Shown: positions 431 to 17,368, counted from the first letter of the stretch. The stretch is 24,000 nucleotides of DNA from Desulfurococcales archaeon (GCA_032249255.1 JAVVGE010000012.1:7321-31320); one strand, 5' to 3'. Program-made: numbers and translations. Notes: generated from the sequence alone by a model not told the origin.

Positions 431-487
431 CCACTGCTCTTTCAACTCTATAGCTGATCACCTTTTCCATCTAGTCTATGCTCTTTC

Positions 488-978
488 AGCTCTATAGTAG
501 ATCTTTGTGGGTCTTTGTCTCTCCTTTCCAGACCCTGTATATAATTTTTGTTTCTATAATATTTAAGTATTTATGGTGATCTAGCATGAAATCAACCAAT
601 TTCCACATCTCTACGAGAATGGGTTTCCATATTCTCCAAATAGCATTTCAATAACTATCACACCCCTCGTTTTCAGAGCACCTCTAACTACTAGGTTAGC
701 TATCTTTCTCCTGCGATCTTTTCTCTTCTCACCTTCCGTAAGCTTTCCGCAGCCTTCATAGCCTCCTTACTATTTGATCTATATTTCTCCCGAATACTCT
801 CCTCTCTATTTCTTAAGCTGTAGCCTAGAGTTATCTCGACAAGATCTGTTTTGAGGATTATTGCAGATGCCTCGTTGAGTGTTGCAGCAGAGTTCTCATT
901 AACATTAGCAGGCTTCACAATATTCTATGGTTTATAGAATAGAAACCCCCTGGAGAGCGAGGCCTGTTCTCTATCTAA
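488..978 (-). mobile_element. Relic tnpB-derived element (E0): left-end module fused to an internal tnpB fragment, with a right-end-like tail
   Basis: The minus strand of 945-978 reads TTAGATAGAGAACAGGCCTCGCTCTCCAGGGGGT. This aligns to the left end of the full element (14785-14821, TTAAAGAGAGCAAATGACCCCCCGCTCTTAAGGGCTG). It is followed directly by tnpB-homologous coding sequence. The far end shares AGACCC.CA.A..GATCTACTATAGA with the E2 terminus. Confidence 0.5.
610..918 (-). pseudogene. tnpB: tnpB (IS605 OrfB-type) internal fragment, truncated at 5' and 3' ends and frameshifted
   Basis: ORF 700..918 (VKPANVNENSAATLNEASAIILKTDLVEITLGYS...) aligns to residues 1-65 of ORF 15702..16475 (MKFVNVNENSVATLYEAFAVILETDLARTTLGYS...). 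DNA similarity continues in another frame to about 610 (IANLVVRGALKTRGVIVIE versus TANLIVRDALRTRGVIVIE). Confidence 0.7.
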
Positions 979-2471: not shown

Positions 2472-2649
2472 CCAGAAGATTAGACATTAGCAAACCTAAT
2501 AAGTAACACTGATCCGAAACACTCATCAGACAAACATTTTAAAACCTGACCAAATAAGCTACAAGCTAGAAGCATCGCACTTAACCGGAATAAAGATTTA
2601 TTATTATCTTCTAATACCTAACGACCCCTTTCTGCCTTGGTGGGCGGGT

Positions 2650-3048
2650 TTTTATGATGGGGTCTCGGATGTTACCCCTCTGAGAGGGGTTATTGTTTCT
2701 ATTTTCATGATCATCGGACTAGGGGTAAGGAAGCTAACCGAGTATCCAACTAAGACGCTATCCCCAAGCCTTCAGTGCGATATATTCTCATCATAGCCAT
2801 AGGAAGCTTAAAAACGCAAATACTACTCCGCCTTTAAAGGCGAGGTTTGCTGTTTCTCCATCAACTTTCTAAATGCTTTCGGGGGTCGGGTCTCGGCGGG
2901 CACGGTCGGGGGTCTTTGGCGGGCATACCTCGGGGGCTCGGGGATTCCTCTACTACTCTTGCCCGTCGAGACCCAGACCCTATACATTATAGAGTATAGA
3001 AGCCTTAAAAACCCCGCCCTAGAGGGGCGGGGCTTATCCTCTATTTAA
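2650..3048 (-). mobile_element. Miniature tnpB-family non-coding element E1 (family B): left end, TATA-like box, ATGATGAGA, 3' module
   Basis: The left-end module on the minus strand of 3000-3048 is TTAAATAGAGGATAAGCCCCGC..TTTTTAAGGC. The internal block GTAGTATTT+T/A run+ATGATGAGA (minus strand of 2786-2822) is shared with E2. The ~75-bp 3' module at 2659-2730 aligns with 6421-6492. Confidence 0.55.
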
Positions 3049-3130
3049 TGGCAATGTGCTATTCATAATCAATGGTGTTATTTAGATGGAGCTATGGTAC
3101 ATAGGATCAAGCTATCTTTGGGAGAGCATC

Positions 3131-3472
3131 TTATATGCGGCCTTTTAGCTGTGATAGTAAAGAACCAATTTTCTGTGATGCGAATATATCTCCCCTTATC
3201 TTTAATTCGCCCCTAAGATATGCCCTTACAGGATCCAGTTCTCCTTTTATAATCTTGACCATGATCTCGTCCTTTGCTGCTAGCACAGCTGTGGGAGAGC
3301 TATGCCTGCCCTCAACGATCTTAACTGTTCCATCGGGCGTGATCTCCATGTAAAATGGAGGCTCGCCCTCGATTTCGAACTGAAAGAACATTGGGCCTTT
3401 TACCTGGGATCTCAGTTTTGGATCGCTGTTTACAATATCTGCAGTCCTTCTCATAAGATCTAAAGTGGTCAT
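3131..3472 (-). CDS. SCP2 sterol-carrier-like domain protein
   Basis: 113 aa. The C-terminal pattern GELDPVRAYLRGELKIRGDIFASQKIGSLL matches the SCP2 signature (G.l.p..A...Gklki.Gd...a.kl). The overlapping ORFs 3135..3353(+) and 3321..3557(-) look spurious. Confidence 0.75.
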   Translation of the reverse strand: MTTLDLMRRTADIVNSDPKLRSQVKGPMFFQFEIEGEPPFYMEITPDGTVKIVEGRHSSPTAVLAAKDEIMVKIIKGELDPVRAYLRGELKIRGDIFASQKIGSLLSQLKGRI

Positions 3473-3671
3473 CGATATATCCCCTAATGAATATTTTTAG
3501 GGGGTTATATATAAACCTCTGGTAGTCCTCTGTATATAATATAAATCTGAGTATCATATATTAAAATCGCTAGATCTTCCGGGTTTTTAATAGATCCTTT
3601 TTGTAGTATCTGTAGAAAGGTTCATGGATGGCAATTATGAACTTTAGTTTATCTCATGTGGATCGGTCTTC

Positions 3672-5873
3672 ATGTGGTCATATTTTAAACCATTGATGAG
3701 TATATCATGTGGATGGGTGTACATGGTGAGTCGGGTTGGAATAGGTATGTTAGCGATCTCGTTAATACTTGTGTATATATTTATCAATACATATCCCTCT
3801 GCGACACAGTCTATGGAAAAACCTGTTATAATGGATCCAACTTACTCTATAAACCAGATTGTGAGGCCCGGTAGCTGGTTCATAGTAGAGGTGAGAGATC
3901 CTGCTGGTGTTTTTGCTCCTAGCAGAGCTAGTGTTACTGTGTCTTGCTATATATCTGGGCTAGTCAATATCTCCCTCTCGATAGTGGGATACAATACCCA
4001 GGCTGGGAGGCATAGTATCAACGTCTCTATTCCTAGGTTCGAGACCCCTGCCGAGGGGTTCTACCCATGCTCGCTAGTGATTTCAGATGGTAAGAGCACT
4101 TTGATCAGTGAGAAGAGTGTCTATATATATAATAAGAGTCTCAATAGAGTAGGGATCCTTCATATAACCGATATACATCTACTCCTCCCAACCCCCATTG
4201 GAACGGCTTACCAGACTCTAACATCAGCCATCTTCCTCGCTAATATGTTAAAAGACATAGATCTGGTAATCAACACTGGAGACACGGCTGATAGACCGGG
4301 AGATTCCATCCTATACACATACTACAGACAAGCACTAAAAACGCTTCTAAAACCCATACTAGCTGTTCCAGGAAACCACGACGGCTCCGGGATAAGTCCA
4401 GACGTATTCGCCGCTGTCTACGGCTCCAGCGTTGGGGTAGCGACATGGTATAGGAGGATAGAGAACTACTTAATAGTGGGGCTCGACACATCTGCGAGAG
4501 GGGTTATAGACAGCTCTCAAATAGCCTTTCTAGAGAGGGTTCTGCGGGAGAATCTAGATGCCATGACAAAAATAATATTGATTCACCACCCGATATTTAG
4601 GGCAAGTGCTAAGGGAGTGTACATAGATCAACAGCTAAGGGATATCCCAAGAAATCTTCTTTACACATCCTGGGCAGAGGACGAGGGTATTGCGAGGGAG
4701 TTTCTCAGGCTAATAGATCTATACAATGTATCAGCGGTTCTAGCCGGTCATGTCCATCAGGACTCAATAGTTATATATAGAAATAAAACAACATTCATAA
4801 CAACAGGGACTCTGGGGGGTCCGAGATCTGATTACAACGCATTCAGAATAATAGATGCTTTCTCCAACGGCACTGTAGTCCCTAGATATGCGCCTGGCAC
4901 TGATGCTAGGAGCAATATGAATAGCTATAATGTTGAGAAAGCGGTAATCAGATACTGGGCTGATAGAGACTACTCAGGTGTTTTCATCAATATCTCTAGA
5001 GATCTGGGTGTAGATCTAGGGAGCACTGTGAGCATCTATCTAGACTCTCCGATCACTAGCACCATTATAGAGAAAATATCGTATGACACCTCGTCTAGAG
5101 AGGCGTTGAAGCCGGTGGCTAGGATAGAAATTCCAGGTGATGATGGGGCTATAAGAACTCTGTACAGGGTTGATATCTCAGCTCAAGATATATATAGACC
5201 GCTGGGCATCATAGTTAGAAACCCTAGTCTAGATTTATCTTTAAAGCCGTATATAGCTAGCATAGATATTCAGCCTAAGCAGCCTAGGCGGGGAATAGAT
5301 CCAATTATAGTTGAGGTCAAGGTATCCAGAGGATCTACATATGTATATAGGGTAGAGATACTCCTTAGCATCACCACCACGGGAGGAAGCTCGGCAGAGG
5401 TATTGGGAGAAGCGCTGCCCAGCTGGGATTACACGAAATATATTATAACATTTGGAGGATTTGATGCCTCGAGAGCGGTTCTTATTGCAAGGGCATATGA
5501 TCTCTATGGAAACATAGCTGAAAAGGAGATATCGATAGTCTTTAGAGAAGCAGCTCGAACCACAGCCACAGCATCAGTCCAGATAACTACAATAACCACG
5601 ACACCTGTAGCAATGAATACTTACACATATACCTCTACCTCAATATCCACAACAGCTGCTATTCAAGCAAATCAAACCCTGACGACCACGGGTATAGAGA
5701 GCCCGGCACAATTACCTACAGCAATCACTGCCCCCGCCACACAGCCCATAACAACCCATATTCAGAGACAAGCTAGCGATACATCAGGCCTTATAATAGC
5801 TATAGCAATAGCTATTGCTGGTATTGGGCTAGTAGCCATGCTAACCTACATGCTGAAAAAGCGTGTAAGATAA
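3672..5873 (+). CDS. Surface-anchored calcineurin-like metallophosphoesterase with Thr-rich stalk and C-terminal TM anchor
   Basis: All phosphoesterase motifs are present in order: ILHITDIH, NTGDTADRPGD, VPGNHD, IHHP, GHVHQD. There is an N-terminal hydrophobic segment; the start may be the Met at 3723 (MVSRVGIGMLAISLILVY). The C-terminus has a T/S/A-rich run followed by IIAIAIAIAGIGLVAMLTYMLKKRVR. Confidence 0.85.
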   Translation: MWSYFKPLMSISCGWVYMVSRVGIGMLAISLILVYIFINTYPSATQSMEKPVIMDPTYSINQIVRPGSWFIVEVRDPAGVFAPSRASVTVSCYISGLVNISLSIVGYNTQAGRHSINVSIPRFETPAEGFYPCSLVISDGKSTLISEKSVYIYNKSLNRVGILHITDIHLLLPTPIGTAYQTLTSAIFLANMLKDIDLVINTGDTADRPGDSILYTYYRQALKTLLKPILAVPGNHDGSGISPDVFAAVYGSSVGVATWYRRIENYLIVGLDTSARGVIDSSQIAFLERVLRENLDAMTKIILIHHPIFRASAKGVYIDQQLRDIPRNLLYTSWAEDEGIAREFLRLIDLYNVSAVLAGHVHQDSIVIYRNKTTFITTGTLGGPRSDYNAFRIIDAFSNGTVVPRYAPGTDARSNMNSYNVEKAVIRYWADRDYSGVFINISRDLGVDLGSTVSIYLDSPITSTIIEKISYDTSSREALKPVARIEIPGDDGAIRTLYRVDISAQDIYRPLGIIVRNPSLDLSLKPYIASIDIQPKQPRRGIDPIIVEVKVSRGSTYVYRVEILLSITTTGGSSAEVLGEALPSWDYTKYIITFGGFDASRAVLIARAYDLYGNIAEKEISIVFREAARTTATASVQITTITTTPVAMNTYTYTSTSISTTAAIQANQTLTTTGIESPAQLPTAITAPATQPITTHIQRQASDTSGLIIAIAIAIAGIGLVAMLTYMLKKRVR

Positions 5874-5882
5874 CCTAAAAAT

Positions 5883-6176
5883 CTACTTTATCTCGCCCTC
5901 TTTTTCACTTTTAGCCTGCTCCTCAAGTTTTTTAAGCTCTGCCTCGATCTCCTTCTCGATCTCCTCAATAGGTTTAGGCGGCGGCGTGGTGGCAAGTGTA
6001 TAGCCTATCCAGCCCAGGATGCCCATAACACCTGCAACTGCAACGAACACCGTTAATTTTACCAGAATCTCGGCTATTGCTTGTGTGCTGAAGAATAGCC
6101 CATATAGGTATATAAGTATGACAACTGCACTGATCGCCATGAGTCCAACACCGATCAACTTATCCCTTTCAGGCAT
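5883..6176 (-). CDS. Small membrane protein (2 TM helices plus acidic/lysine-rich coiled-coil tail), hypothetical
   Basis: The ORF track gives 5883..6257. The internal Met at 6176 (MPERDKLIGVGLMAISAVVILIYLYG...) is the more plausible start. The C-terminal tail reads PPPKPIEEIEKEIEAELKKLEEQAKSEKEGEIK. Confidence 0.6.
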   Translation of the reverse strand: MPERDKLIGVGLMAISAVVILIYLYGLFFSTQAIAEILVKLTVFVAVAGVMGILGWIGYTLATTPPPKPIEEIEKEIEAELKKLEEQAKSEKEGEIK

Positions 6177-6392
6177 TTCCCGCACCACATGAAAATTATG
6201 CAAGGGATATATTAATATTGTATTGAATCCATACTCTAAGCAAACTGGTTTCAACAATCTATAGATACCATCTTATCACCTACAGTTCCTCAGTAGATGG
6301 TAGTCCTGTTTTATCCTCGCATCTACTTCTCAGCGGTCTCTTCAGGCGCGCCCACCGTAGTGGCTTCTAATCTATGACACCCTCCCCTTACA

Positions 6393-6744
6393 ATTCTATA
6401 GTAGATCATCTTTTCTATGCTGGGGTCTAGGGTGTTAGCCCTCTGGTGGGGGTTATCGTTTCTATCTCCACGATCATTGGGTTGGGGGTATGCTTCGGGG
6501 TCTCCCCCTAGGGACATCGGGTCACACTAACGGGATGCCCATCCGAGGCATCAGCCCCCAAACTCTCAAAACCATACATCTCATCATACAATAGATAATC
6601 CCTTAGATAGCTTAAAAATATAAATACTACCTCGCCCTGAAGGGCGAAGCTTGCCCTGTTGTCACGAATAGATGGGTTCAGAAGAACCTCCTGAAAGGGG
6701 TGAGGAGCCCAGCCCTTAAAAGCGGGGAAGAGGTTAGCTATTAA
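6393..6744 (-). mobile_element. Miniature tnpB-family non-coding element E2 (family B)
   Basis: The left-end module on the minus strand of 6708-6744 is TTAATAGCTAACCTCTTCCCCGCTTTTAAGGGCTG. It shares the hairpin+GTAGTATTTATATTTTTAAG+ATGATGAGA block with E1, and its 3' module 6421-6492 aligns with 2659-2730. ORF 6323..6517(-) lies inside it and is probably not a gene. Confidence 0.55.
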
Positions 6745-6927
6745 GAGATTTTCGGCATATATGTGATGGTTTTAAGCAATAAATATTTTTTATATATTAA
6801 CCTGAGCCTGGGGACCTAGTGTGATGGTATATTAAAAGATTTTCTACAATTTTGAGTAGAGTAGATCGTAAGACTGTGGTAAAGTATTTAAGCTATGTAA
6901 GACCTTATTTATTTCAAGTGTGTATAG

Positions 6928-9075
6928 ATGGTGCAGGTTAAAGCGTATCTGCCACTACCTAAATTGCAGAGTGAAGAGTTCTGGGATTTAGAGAAGATCG
7001 AGCATATTAGGATACTTGCAAGTACTGGCAAGCCCTATAAGATAGATGTTGATAGAAGAAATAGCCTTAGGGTTCTGGATAGGATCATTTTTAAAGGACT
7101 TCCACAGGGTATCAGCCCGAGTGAGGATGTGAGGGTATCTACATTTACAGAAATCTCTGGAATACCTCTATACTCTCCTATATATCTAGGAGATATGTCG
7201 TATGGAGCTCTAAGTGGTGTGCCCAATATAGCTATAGCCATGGCCGCGGATGCCATGGAAATACTGGCAGGAACTGGTGAAGGAGGCCTTCATCCGGAAG
7301 TTGCGAGATATAGGAGGATATTCGTTCAATGGGCCTCCGCTAGGTTTGGTGTTGATATTGACACTCTCATGAGGGGGATGGGGATTGTGATCAAGATAGG
7401 GCAGGGAGCTAAACCCGGTATTGGTGGGCACCTCCCAGGTTCAAAAGTCACTGAACCAATATCCATCGCCAGGAGGATCCCTGTGGGTTCGGATGCTATA
7501 TCTCCTGCTCCCCACCATGATATATACTCAATAGAGGATCTGGGACAGAGGATCGAAGCCCTAAAAGAGGCGACAGGGAAGCCTGTCTATGTGAAGGTAG
7601 CTGCAACAAACTATGTACCGTATATAGTTACGGGCATAGCTAGGATGGGGGCAGACGGAGTTATAATAGATGGACATGGCGCGGGGACCGGGGCGACGCC
7701 TATAATGATCAGGGATAACCTGGGGATTCCGGTAGAGCTTGCAGTGGCATCTGCGCATGATATGCTCATAAAGAATGGGCTTAGAGAGGGCTTCGTAATA
7801 ATAGCTGGCGGAAGGGTGTCAAGTGCTCTAGACGCGGCTAAGCTCATAGCGCTTGGTGCTGACGTGGTTAGCATTGGGACCGCTGCTCTCATAGCTATGG
7901 GATGTATAATGATACATAAGTGCCACATAGGTAACTGTCCAGCAGCTTTAACGAACAAGATAGATGGGTCCAAGGTGCTTGACATAGGTTTCGCCTTCAG
8001 GAATCTTGTTAACTTTATAAGAGGGTTTACCCTAGAGTTATCAAATATCCTAGATGCTCTGGATCTCGGTAGTGTTAGGGAGCTTAGGGGTAGGAGGGAC
8101 CTTCTATATGGTGTTAACCTCCCGAAGAGGATCCTCGAGATCCTGGGGATCGAGGGATCGATCGGCGATACCCCATATAGATTAGGCGATGTATGGACAA
8201 GGAGGAGGATCTCGTATCTAGGAGAGCTGATAGCCAAGGGCGATCCTGTTATAATAGGTATGGGTAGTACAGCTCCTCCAGAAGTTGAGAAATCATATAG
8301 AATAGCGGACTGGCTGAGGATCGATGGAGCACAGGTAACTAGGCCTCCAATAGATCCGTATAGAGAGGATGTGGAACAAGGTTTCTACCTAGCTAGTGGA
8401 AAGCTCTACATATCTGCCCCAATATTGTTCGATGTCGCTAGAGGCGATGAGGATATAAACTCTTCTATTAAGTGGGCATCGCTGGCCCTGGGAACCGGGA
8501 TCTTTGCACATTCTGTCGAGCCTTGGTATAGGGAGATATCCATTACATCAGATCATACAGGCATTATTAGATGGGGGTTTGAGCCCGTGGCCGAGGGATA
8601 CGTAGTTGTTCCATCATCAACATCGAGGATAGAGGCGATGCTCGAGATAAAAGGGATCCTGGGGTATGTGGTGGATGAGGATCTTGGAAGCGAGGATCTA
8701 GAAGTAGTAGTCTCTGAACTAGATACAGGCCTCAAGAAAGTTGGCGTTAGGTATCTCTACGATATACTAGCGAGATCATCTAGGATCAGAGACCCAGGGG
8801 ATATATTGAAGCTCATACTTCTGGGCGCTGACGCCGTGATAGTTTCCGCAGATATACTTAAGAAAGCCATAGGTATAGGCAGTAGAGATGCCCTCAGTAG
8901 AAAGGCTTTCAACCTAGTGGCTGGGATGAAGAAGGAGATAGCGCTAATTGCAGGAGCTGCAGGAGTCTATAATATCCAAAACACCTTCACAGGAAATAGA
9001 GAGCTCCTCAGAGCAGTAGCTCTTTCAGACGAGATCGTGGATAGAATAAGGGTTAGGCAGGCTGGCAGCCCATGA
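6928..9075 (+). CDS. gltB: Glutamate synthase large-subunit FMN-binding domain protein (archaeal GltB2-type) with a C-terminal degenerate barrel-like extension
   Basis: It carries MSYGALS...[36 protein letters not shown], the [17 protein letters not shown] region, and a CX5CX4C 3Fe-4S pattern ([12 protein letters not shown]). Its stop overlaps the next start (ATGA at 9072-9075). Confidence 0.85.
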
Positions 9076-17326: not shown

Positions 17327-17368
17327 GCCCTCACCAAGGGGCTAACACCTGGGACCGGGTAATAGAAA
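17327..17368 (+). repeat. Isolated family-B right-end fragment, joined tail-to-tail to the E3 right end
   Basis: GCCCTCACCAAGGGGCTAACACCTGGGACCGGGTAATAGAAA aligns with the element-sense termini of E1 (reverse complement of 2649-2690) and E2 (reverse complement of 6411-6452). Confidence 0.5.

What the first reader, a model, noticed from the sequence alone, without database searches (positions are those of the whole stretch)
2650..6744. Two ~350-400-bp non-coding elements (E1, E2) built like promoter-equipped solo tnpB 3' modules of a second family
E1 (about 2650-3048) and E2 (about 6393-6744) are both minus-oriented and intergenic. In element sense they share, in order:
- the same left-end module as the tnpB element (..CCCCGC..TTTTAAGG..)
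- a short palindromic hairpin (E1 CGCCTTTAAAGGCG at 2829-2842; E2 CGCCC-TGAA-GGGCG at 6633-6646)
- GTAGTATTT plus a TATA-like T/A run
- ATGATGAGA (E1 2794-2786; E2 6587-6579)
- a ~75-bp conserved 3' block (+ strand 2659-2730 versus 6421-6492: GGGGTCT.GG.TGTTA.CCCTCTG.G.GGGGTTAT.GTTTCTAT.T.CA.GATCAT.GG..T.GGGGTA), which contains a 7-bp hairpin in E1 (ACCCCTC-TCA-GAGGGGT)

E3 carries the same ATGATGAGG (17678-17670) after the same left end. The pattern fits internal-deletion derivatives that keep the left end, the promoter, the first codons (MMR...) and the 3' RNA-type module of a tnpB family with no full-length member in this window.

Five tnpB-derived elements in 24 kb is a high density, and all four short ones point the same way.
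Basis: partly seen in the sequence, partly recalled or inferred. Interest (0 to 1): 0.66.

Follow-up and report, generated by a model that had tools for sequence, protein, structure and literature searches.

The report
Miniature transposons carrying a CRISPR repeat
E1 and E2 are protein-less miniature copies of a tnpB transposon. The unexpected part is that E2 and dozens of its relatives have swapped the transposon's right-end hairpin for one well-preserved copy of the host's own CRISPR repeat, which may be a decoy or processing signal for the host's CRISPR machinery.

Summary
E2 (window 6374-6660, minus strand) belongs to a family of about 30 near-complete copies, plus many truncated ones, in this Desulfurococcales genome. 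Two related species also carry it.

Profile alignment shows E2 is an internal-deletion derivative of a "family-A" tnpB element. Its 5' half matches the left end, promoter, leader and first ~11 codons. Its 3' part matches the last ~65 nt of tnpB. Intact parents lie on other contigs (C5, C31).

- ATGATGAGA is not the start codon. It sits about 24 nt after a conserved TATA-like box. The true ATG relic is at 6487-6518.
- E1 is a decayed composite of two such pieces.
- The orthologous site is empty in two sister species.

New result: E2's right-end hairpin is replaced by one copy of the genome's own CRISPR repeat (6387-6410).

- About 138-168 such solitary repeats are dispersed in the genome.
- They sit on miniatures with four different upstream RNA bodies.
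- In E2-type copies the repeat is 96.6% conserved, against about 80% for the element body.

This promoter-RNA-solitary-repeat layout resembles RNA anti-CRISPRs.

The parts
6661..6664 (-). TGAC next to E2's left end; likely the target-site or TAM-like motif, not part of the element
   Evidence: Family homology starts right after it. TGAC (or TGAT) precedes most copies.
6630..6660 (-). E2 left end with subterminal hairpin (CTTCGCCC-TTCA-GGGCGAGG)
   Evidence: Matches the left ends of full-length family-A tnpB elements, for example C44:1904-1938 and C5.
6611..6619 (-). TATA-like box TTTTTAAGC, inherited from the tnpB promoter
   Evidence: About 90-99% conserved per column in 50 copies from 3 genomes. 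The same box sits in full-length left ends. Promoter activity is inferred.
6579..6587 (-). ATGATGAGA (family consensus GTGATGAGG); predicted transcript 5' end, not a start codon
   Evidence: Near-invariant and 23-24 nt after the box. The ORF is not conserved. The motif lies upstream of 42 of 138 solitary CRISPR repeats, against 3 downstream and 2 antisense.
6487..6518 (-). Relic of the TnpB start codon and first ~10 codons (GATGTCCCTAGGGGGAGACCCCGAAGCATACC)
   Evidence: The nhmmer alignment places it on ATG TCC GGC GGG... of the intact C5 and C31 tnpB genes.
6411..6478 (-). Retained 3' end of tnpB (small hairpin plus the C-terminal codon block)
   Evidence: Shared with more than 100 tnpB 3' ends in the genome.
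6387..6410 (-). Solitary CRISPR repeat GATGATCTACTATAGAATTGTAAG (1 mismatch to the array repeat), standing where the right-end hairpin should be
   Evidence: It is the same repeat as the genome's arrays on C44, C56, C191, C16 and C8. It is the junction type of 31 elements.
6374..6386 (-). Right-end tail GGGAGGGTGTCAT
   Evidence: The same tail (GGGGAGGGGTCAT) ends full-length family-A elements after their hairpin.
2865..3048 (-). E1 part 1: left end (hairpin 3011-3033, box 2999-3011), leader and duplicated N-terminal codon relic of a family-A tnpB
   Evidence: BLAST hits to the left ends of ~1.5-kb family-A elements on C44, C76, C50 and C139.
2621..2853 (-). E1 part 2: decayed E2-type unit. 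It has hairpin 2826-2844, box 2806-2814, ATGATGAGA 2786-2794, 3' block 2649-2730 and a degenerate right-end hairpin plus tail at 2621-2648. It has no CRISPR repeat.
   Evidence: nhmmer profile positions 8-258; alignment with E2. Box-to-motif spacing is only 12 nt, and the ATG-relic block is deleted.

Best explanation
**What they are (shown)**
E1 and E2 are non-autonomous miniature derivatives of tnpB-only insertion sequences (IS1341-type, IS200/IS605-IS607 superfamily). An internal deletion removed almost all of tnpB. It left the left-end hairpin, the tnpB promoter box, the leader and about 11 codons, and the last ~65 nt of the gene.
- E2 is a young insertion. Two sister species have an empty site.
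- E1 is a decayed composite of two such pieces.
- In E2 and about 30 relatives, the right-end hairpin has been replaced by one copy of the host's class-1 CRISPR repeat, followed by the normal right-end tail.

**How it most likely works (inferred)**
- The left-end promoter starts an RNA near ATGATGAG. The RNA runs about 180 nt into the repeat.
- The host Cas6 binds and cuts the repeat. The expected cut is 8 nt before its end, between 6395 and 6394.
- The unit therefore behaves as a promoter-RNA-solitary-repeat module. It acts either as a decoy for Cas proteins, like an RNA anti-CRISPR, or as a Cas6-defined small RNA.

**Odds**
- Identity as a deletion-derived miniature element: about 0.9.
- The repeat is kept because it does something: about 0.5.
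- The specific decoy role: about 0.25.
- The confidence figure given (0.55) is for the whole statement, including the inferred transcription and Cas6 steps.
For: **Copy number and boundaries**
- About 30 near-complete copies, each with different flanks.

**Parentage**
- The profile's 5' half aligns to the left end and ATG region of intact tnpB genes, and its 3' part aligns to tnpB 3' ends.

**Non-coding**
- No conserved ORF.
- No Rfam family at or above its threshold.

**Recent insertion**
- The orthologous intergenic region is 140-170 nt and lacks E2 in G001 and G005.

**The repeat**
- It is identical to the repeat of the genome's arrays.
- 31 copies sit directly after the tnpB 3' block.
- In 29 such copies from three genomes of two genera, the repeat is 96.6% identical to consensus. 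The body is 79.8%, and the best other 24-column window is 87.8%.
- Most changes fall at repeat positions 9-11. The last 8 nt are changed in only 3 of 29 copies.

**Recurrence**
- Repeat-type and hairpin-type ends are intermixed on the body tree, with at least 5 forced switches.
- Repeat-plus-tail fusions occur on miniatures with four different upstream RNA bodies. They also occur on a different TnpB family's miniature in genome G001.

**Link to the 5' module**
- The RTGATGAKG motif lies upstream of 42 of 138 solitary repeats, against 3 downstream and 2 antisense.

**Host machinery**
- Type III and type I effector genes are present.

**Precedent**
- The layout matches that described for RNA anti-CRISPRs (PMC10651486).
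Against:
- The RNA does not fold better than shuffles (z = -0.39). Covariation support is modest and comes largely from one lineage.
- None of 245 array spacers targets tnpB or E2-type elements, so there is no visible conflict for a decoy to relieve.
- No Cas1 was found, and only a weak Cas6-like match, in this 93%-complete assembly.
- The window's own repeat has a mismatch inside the 8-nt handle (ATTGTAAG).
- Partial repeat duplications (TAGAATTGAAAG) next to many solitary repeats point to sloppy recombination.
- The host keeps about 250 array repeats despite roughly 140-170 solitary ones.
Confidence: 0.55

Rival explanations
1. The CRISPR repeat is a neutral passenger. It was picked up by recombination between element ends and arrays or other repeat-bearing elements. 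It spreads by end-swapping and looks conserved only because each acquisition is recent.
For: - End types switch often on the body tree: 14 changes, about the same as shuffled labels.
- Partial repeat duplications and variable junctions after GAAAG occur in many copies.
- No spacer conflict is seen.
- The downstream flanks match nothing informative.
Against: - Conservation drops sharply on both sides of the repeat. The tail after it is 53% and the 3' block before it about 85%, against 96.6% for the repeat. Swaps of longer tracts would not produce this.
- A 24-nt tract flanked by unrelated spacers is a poor substrate for conversion from arrays (inference).
- Variation is confined to the loop of the small hairpin.
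- The same fusion is kept on four element types and in four genomes.
Confidence: 0.35
2. E2 RNA is a solo TnpB guide RNA (omega RNA) used in trans by family-A TnpB proteins encoded elsewhere. The sequence after the scaffold, either the CRISPR repeat or the flank, serves as the guide.
For: - The 3' block is the end of the tnpB gene, where omega RNAs arise.
- Intact family-A TnpB frames exist on C5 and C31.
- After a Cas6 cut, the scaffold would carry a 16-nt repeat-derived 3' end, which is a typical TnpB guide length (background knowledge).
Against: - Only about 65 nt of the tnpB 3' region is retained. The rest of the RNA derives from the 5' leader.
- The hairpin next to the guide position is missing in E2.
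- Array repeats are preceded by variable spacers, so a fixed TAM would rarely be present (inference).
- No scaffold-like fold signal is seen.
Confidence: 0.1
3. The repeat turns the downstream flank into a crRNA-like guide (AUUGAAAG plus tail plus flank). This guide is loaded into the host's type I or type III complexes to regulate or target something.
For: - The repeat's 3' handle is almost invariant.
- A few solitary repeats have acquired a second repeat at spacer-like distance: C64, C27, C28, C11.
- Virus-borne mini-arrays are a precedent (PMC6858448, listed).
Against: - 100 of 137 downstream flanks are unique. The rest match only neighbouring repeated elements.
- In E2, the first 13 nt of the would-be spacer are the transposon tail.
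- There is no second repeat to define a 3' end.
Confidence: 0.1
4. E1 and E2 are ordinary RNA or protein genes: a C/D-box sRNA (ATGATGA as box C), another described RNA family, or a small leaderless protein gene.
For: - ATGATGA fits the box C consensus.
- Some copies keep a 70-80-codon frame from ATGATGAGG into the TnpB C-terminal frame.
- There is a weak HgcC match nearby on the other strand: 23.8 bits against a threshold of 50.
Against: - No Rfam family reaches its threshold.
- The frame is broken in most copies.
- Multi-copy dispersal with transposon ends and an empty orthologous site argue against it.
Confidence: 0.03

Closest known systems
tnpB-only insertion sequences (IS1341-type, IS200/IS605-IS607 superfamily) and their miniature non-autonomous derivatives (MITE/PATE-like)
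   Same: - Both ends are homologous to full-length tnpB elements.
- The ends carry subterminal hairpins.
- There are many dispersed copies and no ORF.
- Related species have an empty site.
   Different: - The right-end hairpin is replaced by a CRISPR repeat in E2-type copies.
- Internal promoter and RNA blocks are better conserved than the left-end hairpin (78%).
- The genome has essentially no Y1 transposase. It does have five serine-recombinase matches.
TnpB omega RNA / sotRNA / HgcC-type RNAs from the 3' end of tnpB
   Same: The 3' block of E1 and E2 is the terminal part of the tnpB gene and right end, the region these RNAs come from.
   Different: - Only about 65 nt of that region remains.
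- Most of the predicted RNA derives from the tnpB 5' leader.
- No Rfam match reaches threshold.
- No TnpB gene is attached.
Solitary repeat units / RNA anti-CRISPRs (Racrs; Camara-Wilpert et al. 2023, PMC10651486)
   Same: - A single repeat matches the host's CRISPR repeat.
- It is carried by a mobile element.
- No cas genes are adjacent.
- A promoter-like box lies within 250 bp upstream, so the RNA would end in the repeat.
   Different: - The carrier is a chromosomal miniature transposon present in dozens of copies, not a virus or plasmid.
- The host is a crenarchaeon with type I and type III systems.
- Neither inhibition nor expression has been tested.
TnpB-to-Cas12 transitional systems (TranC; origin of type V arrays: PMC10691335, and PMC13565253 citing Cell 2025 doi 10.1016/j.cell.2025.09.004)
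   Same: A CRISPR repeat is joined to the end of a TnpB-derived RNA module, at the position where the guide normally begins.
   Different: - The repeat belongs to the host's class-1 (Cas6-type, ...ATTGAAAG) arrays.
- It is single, with no spacers.
- Nearly all carriers lack a tnpB gene.
Virus-borne mini-CRISPR arrays of Sulfolobales (PMC6858448)
   Same: Host-type repeats sit on mobile elements in hyperthermophilic crenarchaea.
   Different: Mini-arrays carry spacers against rival viruses. E2 has no spacer and no second repeat.

Membership tests
Miniature non-autonomous derivative of a tnpB-only IS (IS200/IS605-IS607 superfamily) | Both ends are homologous to one full-length element family | tested here: met
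   Profile positions 2-183 align to the left end and ATG region of the C5 and C31 tnpB genes. Positions ~196-292 align to tnpB 3' ends.
Miniature non-autonomous derivative of a tnpB-only IS (IS200/IS605-IS607 superfamily) | Many dispersed copies with unrelated flanks and sharp boundaries | tested here: met
   The 5' boundary falls after TGAC. The 3' boundary falls at GTCAT or at the end of the repeat.
Miniature non-autonomous derivative of a tnpB-only IS (IS200/IS605-IS607 superfamily) | No transposase or TnpB coding capacity | tested here: met
   The element is 287 nt. An ORF from the conserved ATG survives in a minority of copies only.
Miniature non-autonomous derivative of a tnpB-only IS (IS200/IS605-IS607 superfamily) | Subterminal hairpins at both ends | tested here: inconclusive
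   The left-end hairpin is present in E1 and E2. The right-end hairpin is present but degenerate in E1, and intact in hairpin-type relatives. In E2 it is replaced by the CRISPR repeat.
Miniature non-autonomous derivative of a tnpB-only IS (IS200/IS605-IS607 superfamily) | Insertion polymorphism (empty site in relatives) | tested here: met
   G001:C99 and G005:C67 have 140-170-nt intergenic regions without E2. The exact junction could not be aligned.
Miniature non-autonomous derivative of a tnpB-only IS (IS200/IS605-IS607 superfamily) | A transposase in the genome able to move it in trans | tested here: inconclusive
   The Y1 transposase is represented by one broken 30-residue fragment. There are five serine-recombinase matches, one next to a tnpB on C7.
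TnpB omega RNA | A full scaffold (roughly 100 nt or more) from the tnpB 3' coding region plus the right end | tested here: not met
   Homology to tnpB 3' ends starts only at about profile position 196. That leaves about 65 nt before the repeat.
TnpB omega RNA | Expressed and bound by TnpB | not testable with these tools
Solitary repeat unit / RNA anti-CRISPR (Racr) | A single repeat matching the host's CRISPR repeat, without spacers or adjacent cas genes | tested here: met
   23 of 24 bases match the array repeat. The only other repeats in the window are a degenerate pair at 439-506. None of the 10 window ORFs scanned is a cas gene.
Solitary repeat unit / RNA anti-CRISPR (Racr) | Carried by a mobile genetic element | tested here: met
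   The repeat lies inside the E2 element, between the 3' block and the right-end tail.
Solitary repeat unit / RNA anti-CRISPR (Racr) | A promoter within about 250 bp upstream, giving an RNA that ends in the repeat | tested here: inconclusive
   A conserved TATA-like box lies 201 nt upstream. The associated 5' motif is enriched upstream of solitary repeats. No transcript data are available.
Solitary repeat unit / RNA anti-CRISPR (Racr) | Inhibits CRISPR-Cas by binding Cas6 or Cas7 | not testable with these tools
   This needs biochemistry or genetics.
CRISPR array or mini-array | At least two repeats separated by a spacer | tested here: not met
   There is no second repeat within 300 nt of 6387-6410.
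C/D-box sRNA | Box C plus box D (with C'/D') in a 50-70-nt RNA, matching an Rfam model | tested here: not met
   Only a 19-bit snoU61 match in E1, against a threshold of 55. None in E2.

The most novel reading that the evidence does not exclude
In this family of hot-spring Desulfurococcales, miniature TnpB-derived transposons have repeatedly wired themselves to the host's class-1 CRISPR system. They did this by replacing their right-end hairpin with the host repeat. The resulting promoter-RNA-repeat units, roughly 140-170 per genome, are maintained by selection. They act as transposon-borne RNA anti-CRISPRs or as Cas6-processed RNAs. They are a living example of how transposon guide-RNA modules become joined to CRISPR repeats.
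Probability: 0.3. Interest if true: 0.8.

Novelty: new variant of a known kind. Interest (0 to 1): 0.6.

Why it matters
As miniature tnpB elements alone, E1 and E2 are ordinary for this genome. The CRISPR repeat at the transposon's right end is not.

- Solitary repeats are so far described mainly on viruses and plasmids, where one class acts as RNA anti-CRISPRs.
- Here they sit on chromosomal miniature transposons, on four different element types, in at least four genomes of two genera.
- In E2-type copies, the repeat is the best-conserved 24 nt of the element.

If functional, this would extend RNA-based interference with CRISPR, or its exploitation, to insertion sequences in archaea. It would also give a natural system for asking how TnpB-type RNA modules become coupled to CRISPR repeats, which is an open step in models of type V origins. 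If not functional, it still documents frequent exchange between CRISPR arrays and transposon ends.

Tried and rejected
- **Known RNA families:** none at Rfam gathering thresholds. Permissive scans gave only sub-threshold HgcC, sot0042 and snoU61 matches.
- **Thermodynamic signal:** z = -0.39.
- **RNAalifold consensus:** weak, -7.3 kcal/mol with 14 pairs.
- **Hand-built six-helix model:** modest excess covariation over shuffles and slid controls. The model was derived from these same sequences, so this is not decisive.
- **Small-protein reading:** rejected, because the frame is broken in most copies.
- **Direct BLAST of E2 against full-length elements:** found only the 47-nt left end and a ~43-nt 3' block. 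The profile search was needed to show that the middle is the tnpB leader and start region.
- **CRISPR-versus-transposon conflict:** none of 245 spacers hits tnpB or E2. Two spacers hit contig C21 perfectly, and one of them also hits C36 at 97%.
- **crRNA-like targeting by downstream flanks:** no informative matches.
- **Pfam Cas6 and Cas1:** no hits. The Pfam Cas6 model also misses the Sulfolobus control genome.
- **Exact-pattern scan of public genomes for the 3'-block-repeat junction:** no hits, probably because near relatives are withheld there. The repeat alone found two named relatives.
- **Precise insertion junction from empty sites:** the intergenic DNA is too diverged to align.

Full report
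**Setting**

The window is contig C12:7321-31320 of a 2.68-Mb, 250-contig assembly (93% complete). It has intron-bearing tRNAs. Named relatives sharing its CRISPR repeat are 'Desulfurococcales archaeon EvPrim.Bin15' and 'Desulfurococcaceae archaeon AG1'.

The genome is saturated with tnpB. At least 150 TnpB-domain hits were scored out of 335 candidates. The Y1 transposase is represented by one broken fragment. There are five serine-recombinase matches, one next to a tnpB on C7. Five tnpB-derived pieces in 24 kb is therefore the genome's normal density.

**Checking the observation**

E1 and E2 align from the inner hairpin to the 3' terminus.

E2 is one member of a real family.
- BLAST gives 26 hits of at least 150 nt, with a sharp 5' boundary right after TGAC and two alternative 3' boundaries.
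- An nhmmer profile finds 262 hits. About 30 are near-complete units and about as many are further-deleted units.
- Twenty more copies were fetched from a species of the same genus (G005) and from a second genus (G012).

Refined limits:
- E2 is 6374-6660, with TGAC at 6661-6664 outside it.
- E1 is about 2621-3048.
- The '..CCCCGC..TTTTAAGG..' module near E2 (about 6690-6753) is not shared by other family members. It is a separate end remnant related to E3's end (D6).

**What E1 and E2 are**

The genome holds several TnpB families. One of them, here called family A, ends ...HNGVKPLIPLQRANTRDPSIETPP. The E2 3' block still reads ...PHQRANTLDPSIE in that frame.

Plain BLAST linked E2 to full-length family-A elements only through 47 nt of left end and about 43 nt of the 3' block. 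The profile search resolves the middle.
- Positions 2-183 align to the left end, promoter box, leader and start codon of intact family-A genes. In C5 this is ATG TCC GGC GGG GGG AAT..., and in C31 ATG ACC CAA GGG GGG ACG....
- Positions ~196-292 align to tnpB 3' ends.

E2 is therefore a classic internal-deletion derivative. It consists of left-end hairpin, TATA-like box, leader, about 11 codons, the last ~65 nt of the gene, and the right end.

ATGATGAGA (family consensus GTGATGAGG) sits 23-24 nt after the box, where an archaeal transcription start is expected. Frames from it stop after 6-7 codons in many copies. The real ATG relic is at 6487-6518.

E1 is composite.
- Part 1 (2865-3048) has a left end of the 'TTAAATAGAGGATAAGCC' type, plus leader, plus a duplicated N-terminal codon relic of family A.
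- Part 2 (2621-2853) is a decayed E2-type unit. It lacks the ATG block, has only 12 nt between box and motif, and keeps a degenerate right-end hairpin.

**Mobility**

The orthologous intergenic region between the small membrane-protein gene and the glutamate-synthase gene is 140-170 nt in G001 and G005 and lacks E2. E2 therefore inserted after these species split. The diverged intergenic DNA prevented a base-exact junction.

**The unexpected part**

About half of the family ends ...CATAGAAAA + GATGATCTACTATAGAATTGAAAG (+ GGGAGGGGTCAT). The other half, like full-length elements, ends ...CATAGAAA + hairpin (CCCCGCCC-TTCA-GGGCGGGG) + AGGGGTCAT.

A search of relatives showed the 24-mer recurring at about 65-nt spacing. 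In the own genome it is the exact repeat of the CRISPR arrays on C44, C56, C191, C16 and C8. These hold about 246 array repeats and 245 spacers. It ends in ATTGAAAG, the usual 8-nt crRNA handle of crenarchaeal class-1 systems (background knowledge).

E2 therefore carries a solitary CRISPR repeat at 6387-6410, with one mismatch inside the handle. It stands exactly where the right-end hairpin should be, and the normal tail follows at 6374-6386.

**How general it is**

The genome has 168 solitary or mini (1-3 copy) repeats at up to 4 mismatches, or 138 at up to 3 mismatches.
- 31 follow the family-A 3' block.
- Others follow at least three other recurrent RNA-like bodies. One is the family-C/D tnpB 3' region. 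One resembles the 3' region of the C88-type tnpB. One I could not place firmly.
- These other bodies have the same 5' module as E2: a TATA-like box, then about 24-36 nt, then GATGATGAGG or GATGATGATGG.
- The 5' motif lies within 20-320 nt upstream of 42 of 138 solitary repeats. It lies downstream of 3 and antisense to 2.
- A few long tnpB frames also have a repeat after their 3' end: C139, C37, C1 and C39.
- The repeat-plus-tail fusion is found in G000 and in G001, where it sits on a different family's miniatures with no tnpB upstream. It is also in G005 and G012. It was not found in 79 other genomes sampled from the order.

**Is the repeat kept for a reason?**

*Evidence for*
- In 29 repeat-bearing E2-type copies from three genomes, the repeat is 96.6% identical to consensus. 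The element body is 79.8%, and the best other 24-column window is 87.8%.
- The tail right after the repeat is only 53% conserved.
- Most substitutions fall at repeat positions 9-11, the loop of the small TCTA-CTA-TAGA hairpin. The 8-nt handle is changed in 3 of 29 copies.
- On a tree of element bodies, repeat-type and hairpin-type ends are fully intermixed. Well-supported branches force at least 5 switches, and the best tree has 14, about the same as shuffled labels. The end module is therefore exchanged often.
- The sharp drop in conservation on both sides argues against simple long-tract swapping as the only cause of uniformity.

*Evidence against*
- No spacer targets these transposons.
- Downstream flanks match nothing informative.
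- The RNA shows no exceptional folding and only modest covariation.
- Cas1 was not found, and Cas6 only weakly. Type III and type I effector genes are present.

**Most likely mechanism**

*Shown*
- Transposon origin, internal deletion and recent insertion.
- Presence, position and exceptional conservation of the host repeat.
- Association of the repeat with a conserved promoter-like 5' module.

*Inferred*
- The inherited tnpB promoter transcribes about 180 nt of RNA into the repeat.
- Cas6 binds and cuts it.
- The unit then acts as a Cas-protein decoy or as a Cas6-defined small RNA.

The layout of promoter, RNA and solitary repeat on a mobile element, without cas genes, is what was described for RNA anti-CRISPRs (PMC10651486). 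In reviews, these are reported from viruses and plasmids (PMC11656645).

The case also touches models in which type V arrays arose from, or were captured next to, TnpB RNA modules (PMC10691335; TranC, via PMC13565253). Here, however, the repeat is class-1, single, and mostly without a tnpB gene.

**Verdict**

As tnpB-derived miniatures, E1 and E2 are new members of a known kind. This agrees with the earlier follow-up on E3 in this window. The replacement of the right-end hairpin by a CRISPR repeat is a new variant worth experimental follow-up. Its function remains unproven.

Noticed in passing
window 439-506 (minus strand): Two degenerate copies of the same CRISPR repeat lie 44 nt apart. A hairpin module (GGGTCTGG...AGACCC) precedes them. 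That module recurs about 20 times in the genome directly before 1-3 repeats, so it looks leader-like.
   Followed up: partly
G000 contigs C21:12480-12521 and C21:16185-16223, and C36:11735-11769: Two array spacers match contig C21 perfectly. One of them also matches C36 at 97%. This is probably an integrated virus or plasmid that the host's own CRISPR targets.
   Followed up: no
G000:C7:10150-12900: An IS607-like unit. An end module (TTAAATAGAGGACAAGCC plus hairpin) is followed by a MerR-type serine recombinase gene and a family-C tnpB. This is the only kind of candidate transposase found for these elements.
   Followed up: partly
window 6639-6750 (plus strand): A sub-threshold match to Rfam HgcC (23.8 bits against 50, E = 0.002) over the end remnant next to E2. 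It may be the relic of a right end or guide-RNA tail of another tnpB element in the opposite orientation.
   Followed up: no
window 17327-17368 (plus strand): A further family-A 3' block in plus orientation, right after the DUF2204 nucleotidyltransferase gene. It abuts E3's right end tail to tail (inverted repeat I5).
   Followed up: partly
L037 (G001:C99, about 6900-6960): The 'empty' orthologous intergenic region in G001 holds a solo right-end-like hairpin (CACCC-ATTA-GGGCGGGG-AGGTCAG). The same intergenic site has therefore been hit by another tnpB family in the sister species.
   Followed up: no
many solitary repeats genome-wide, for example G000 contigs C231, C5, C29, C84, C88 and C92: The repeat is often followed directly by a duplicate of its own 3' half (TAGAATTGAAAG, or AAAGATAGAATTGAAAG). 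This suggests slippage or recombination at the handle.
   Followed up: no
E2-type copies in G000 versus G005: The closest copies from different species are up to 88% identical, flanks included. The neighbouring housekeeping genes are only 75-80% identical. This hints at transfer between species or strong constraint.
   Followed up: partly
whole assembly G000: About 250 array repeats are present, yet no Cas1 match was found, and only a weak Cas6-like match (C19:22810-23028). The assembly is 93% complete, and the arrays lie at contig ends.
   Followed up: partly
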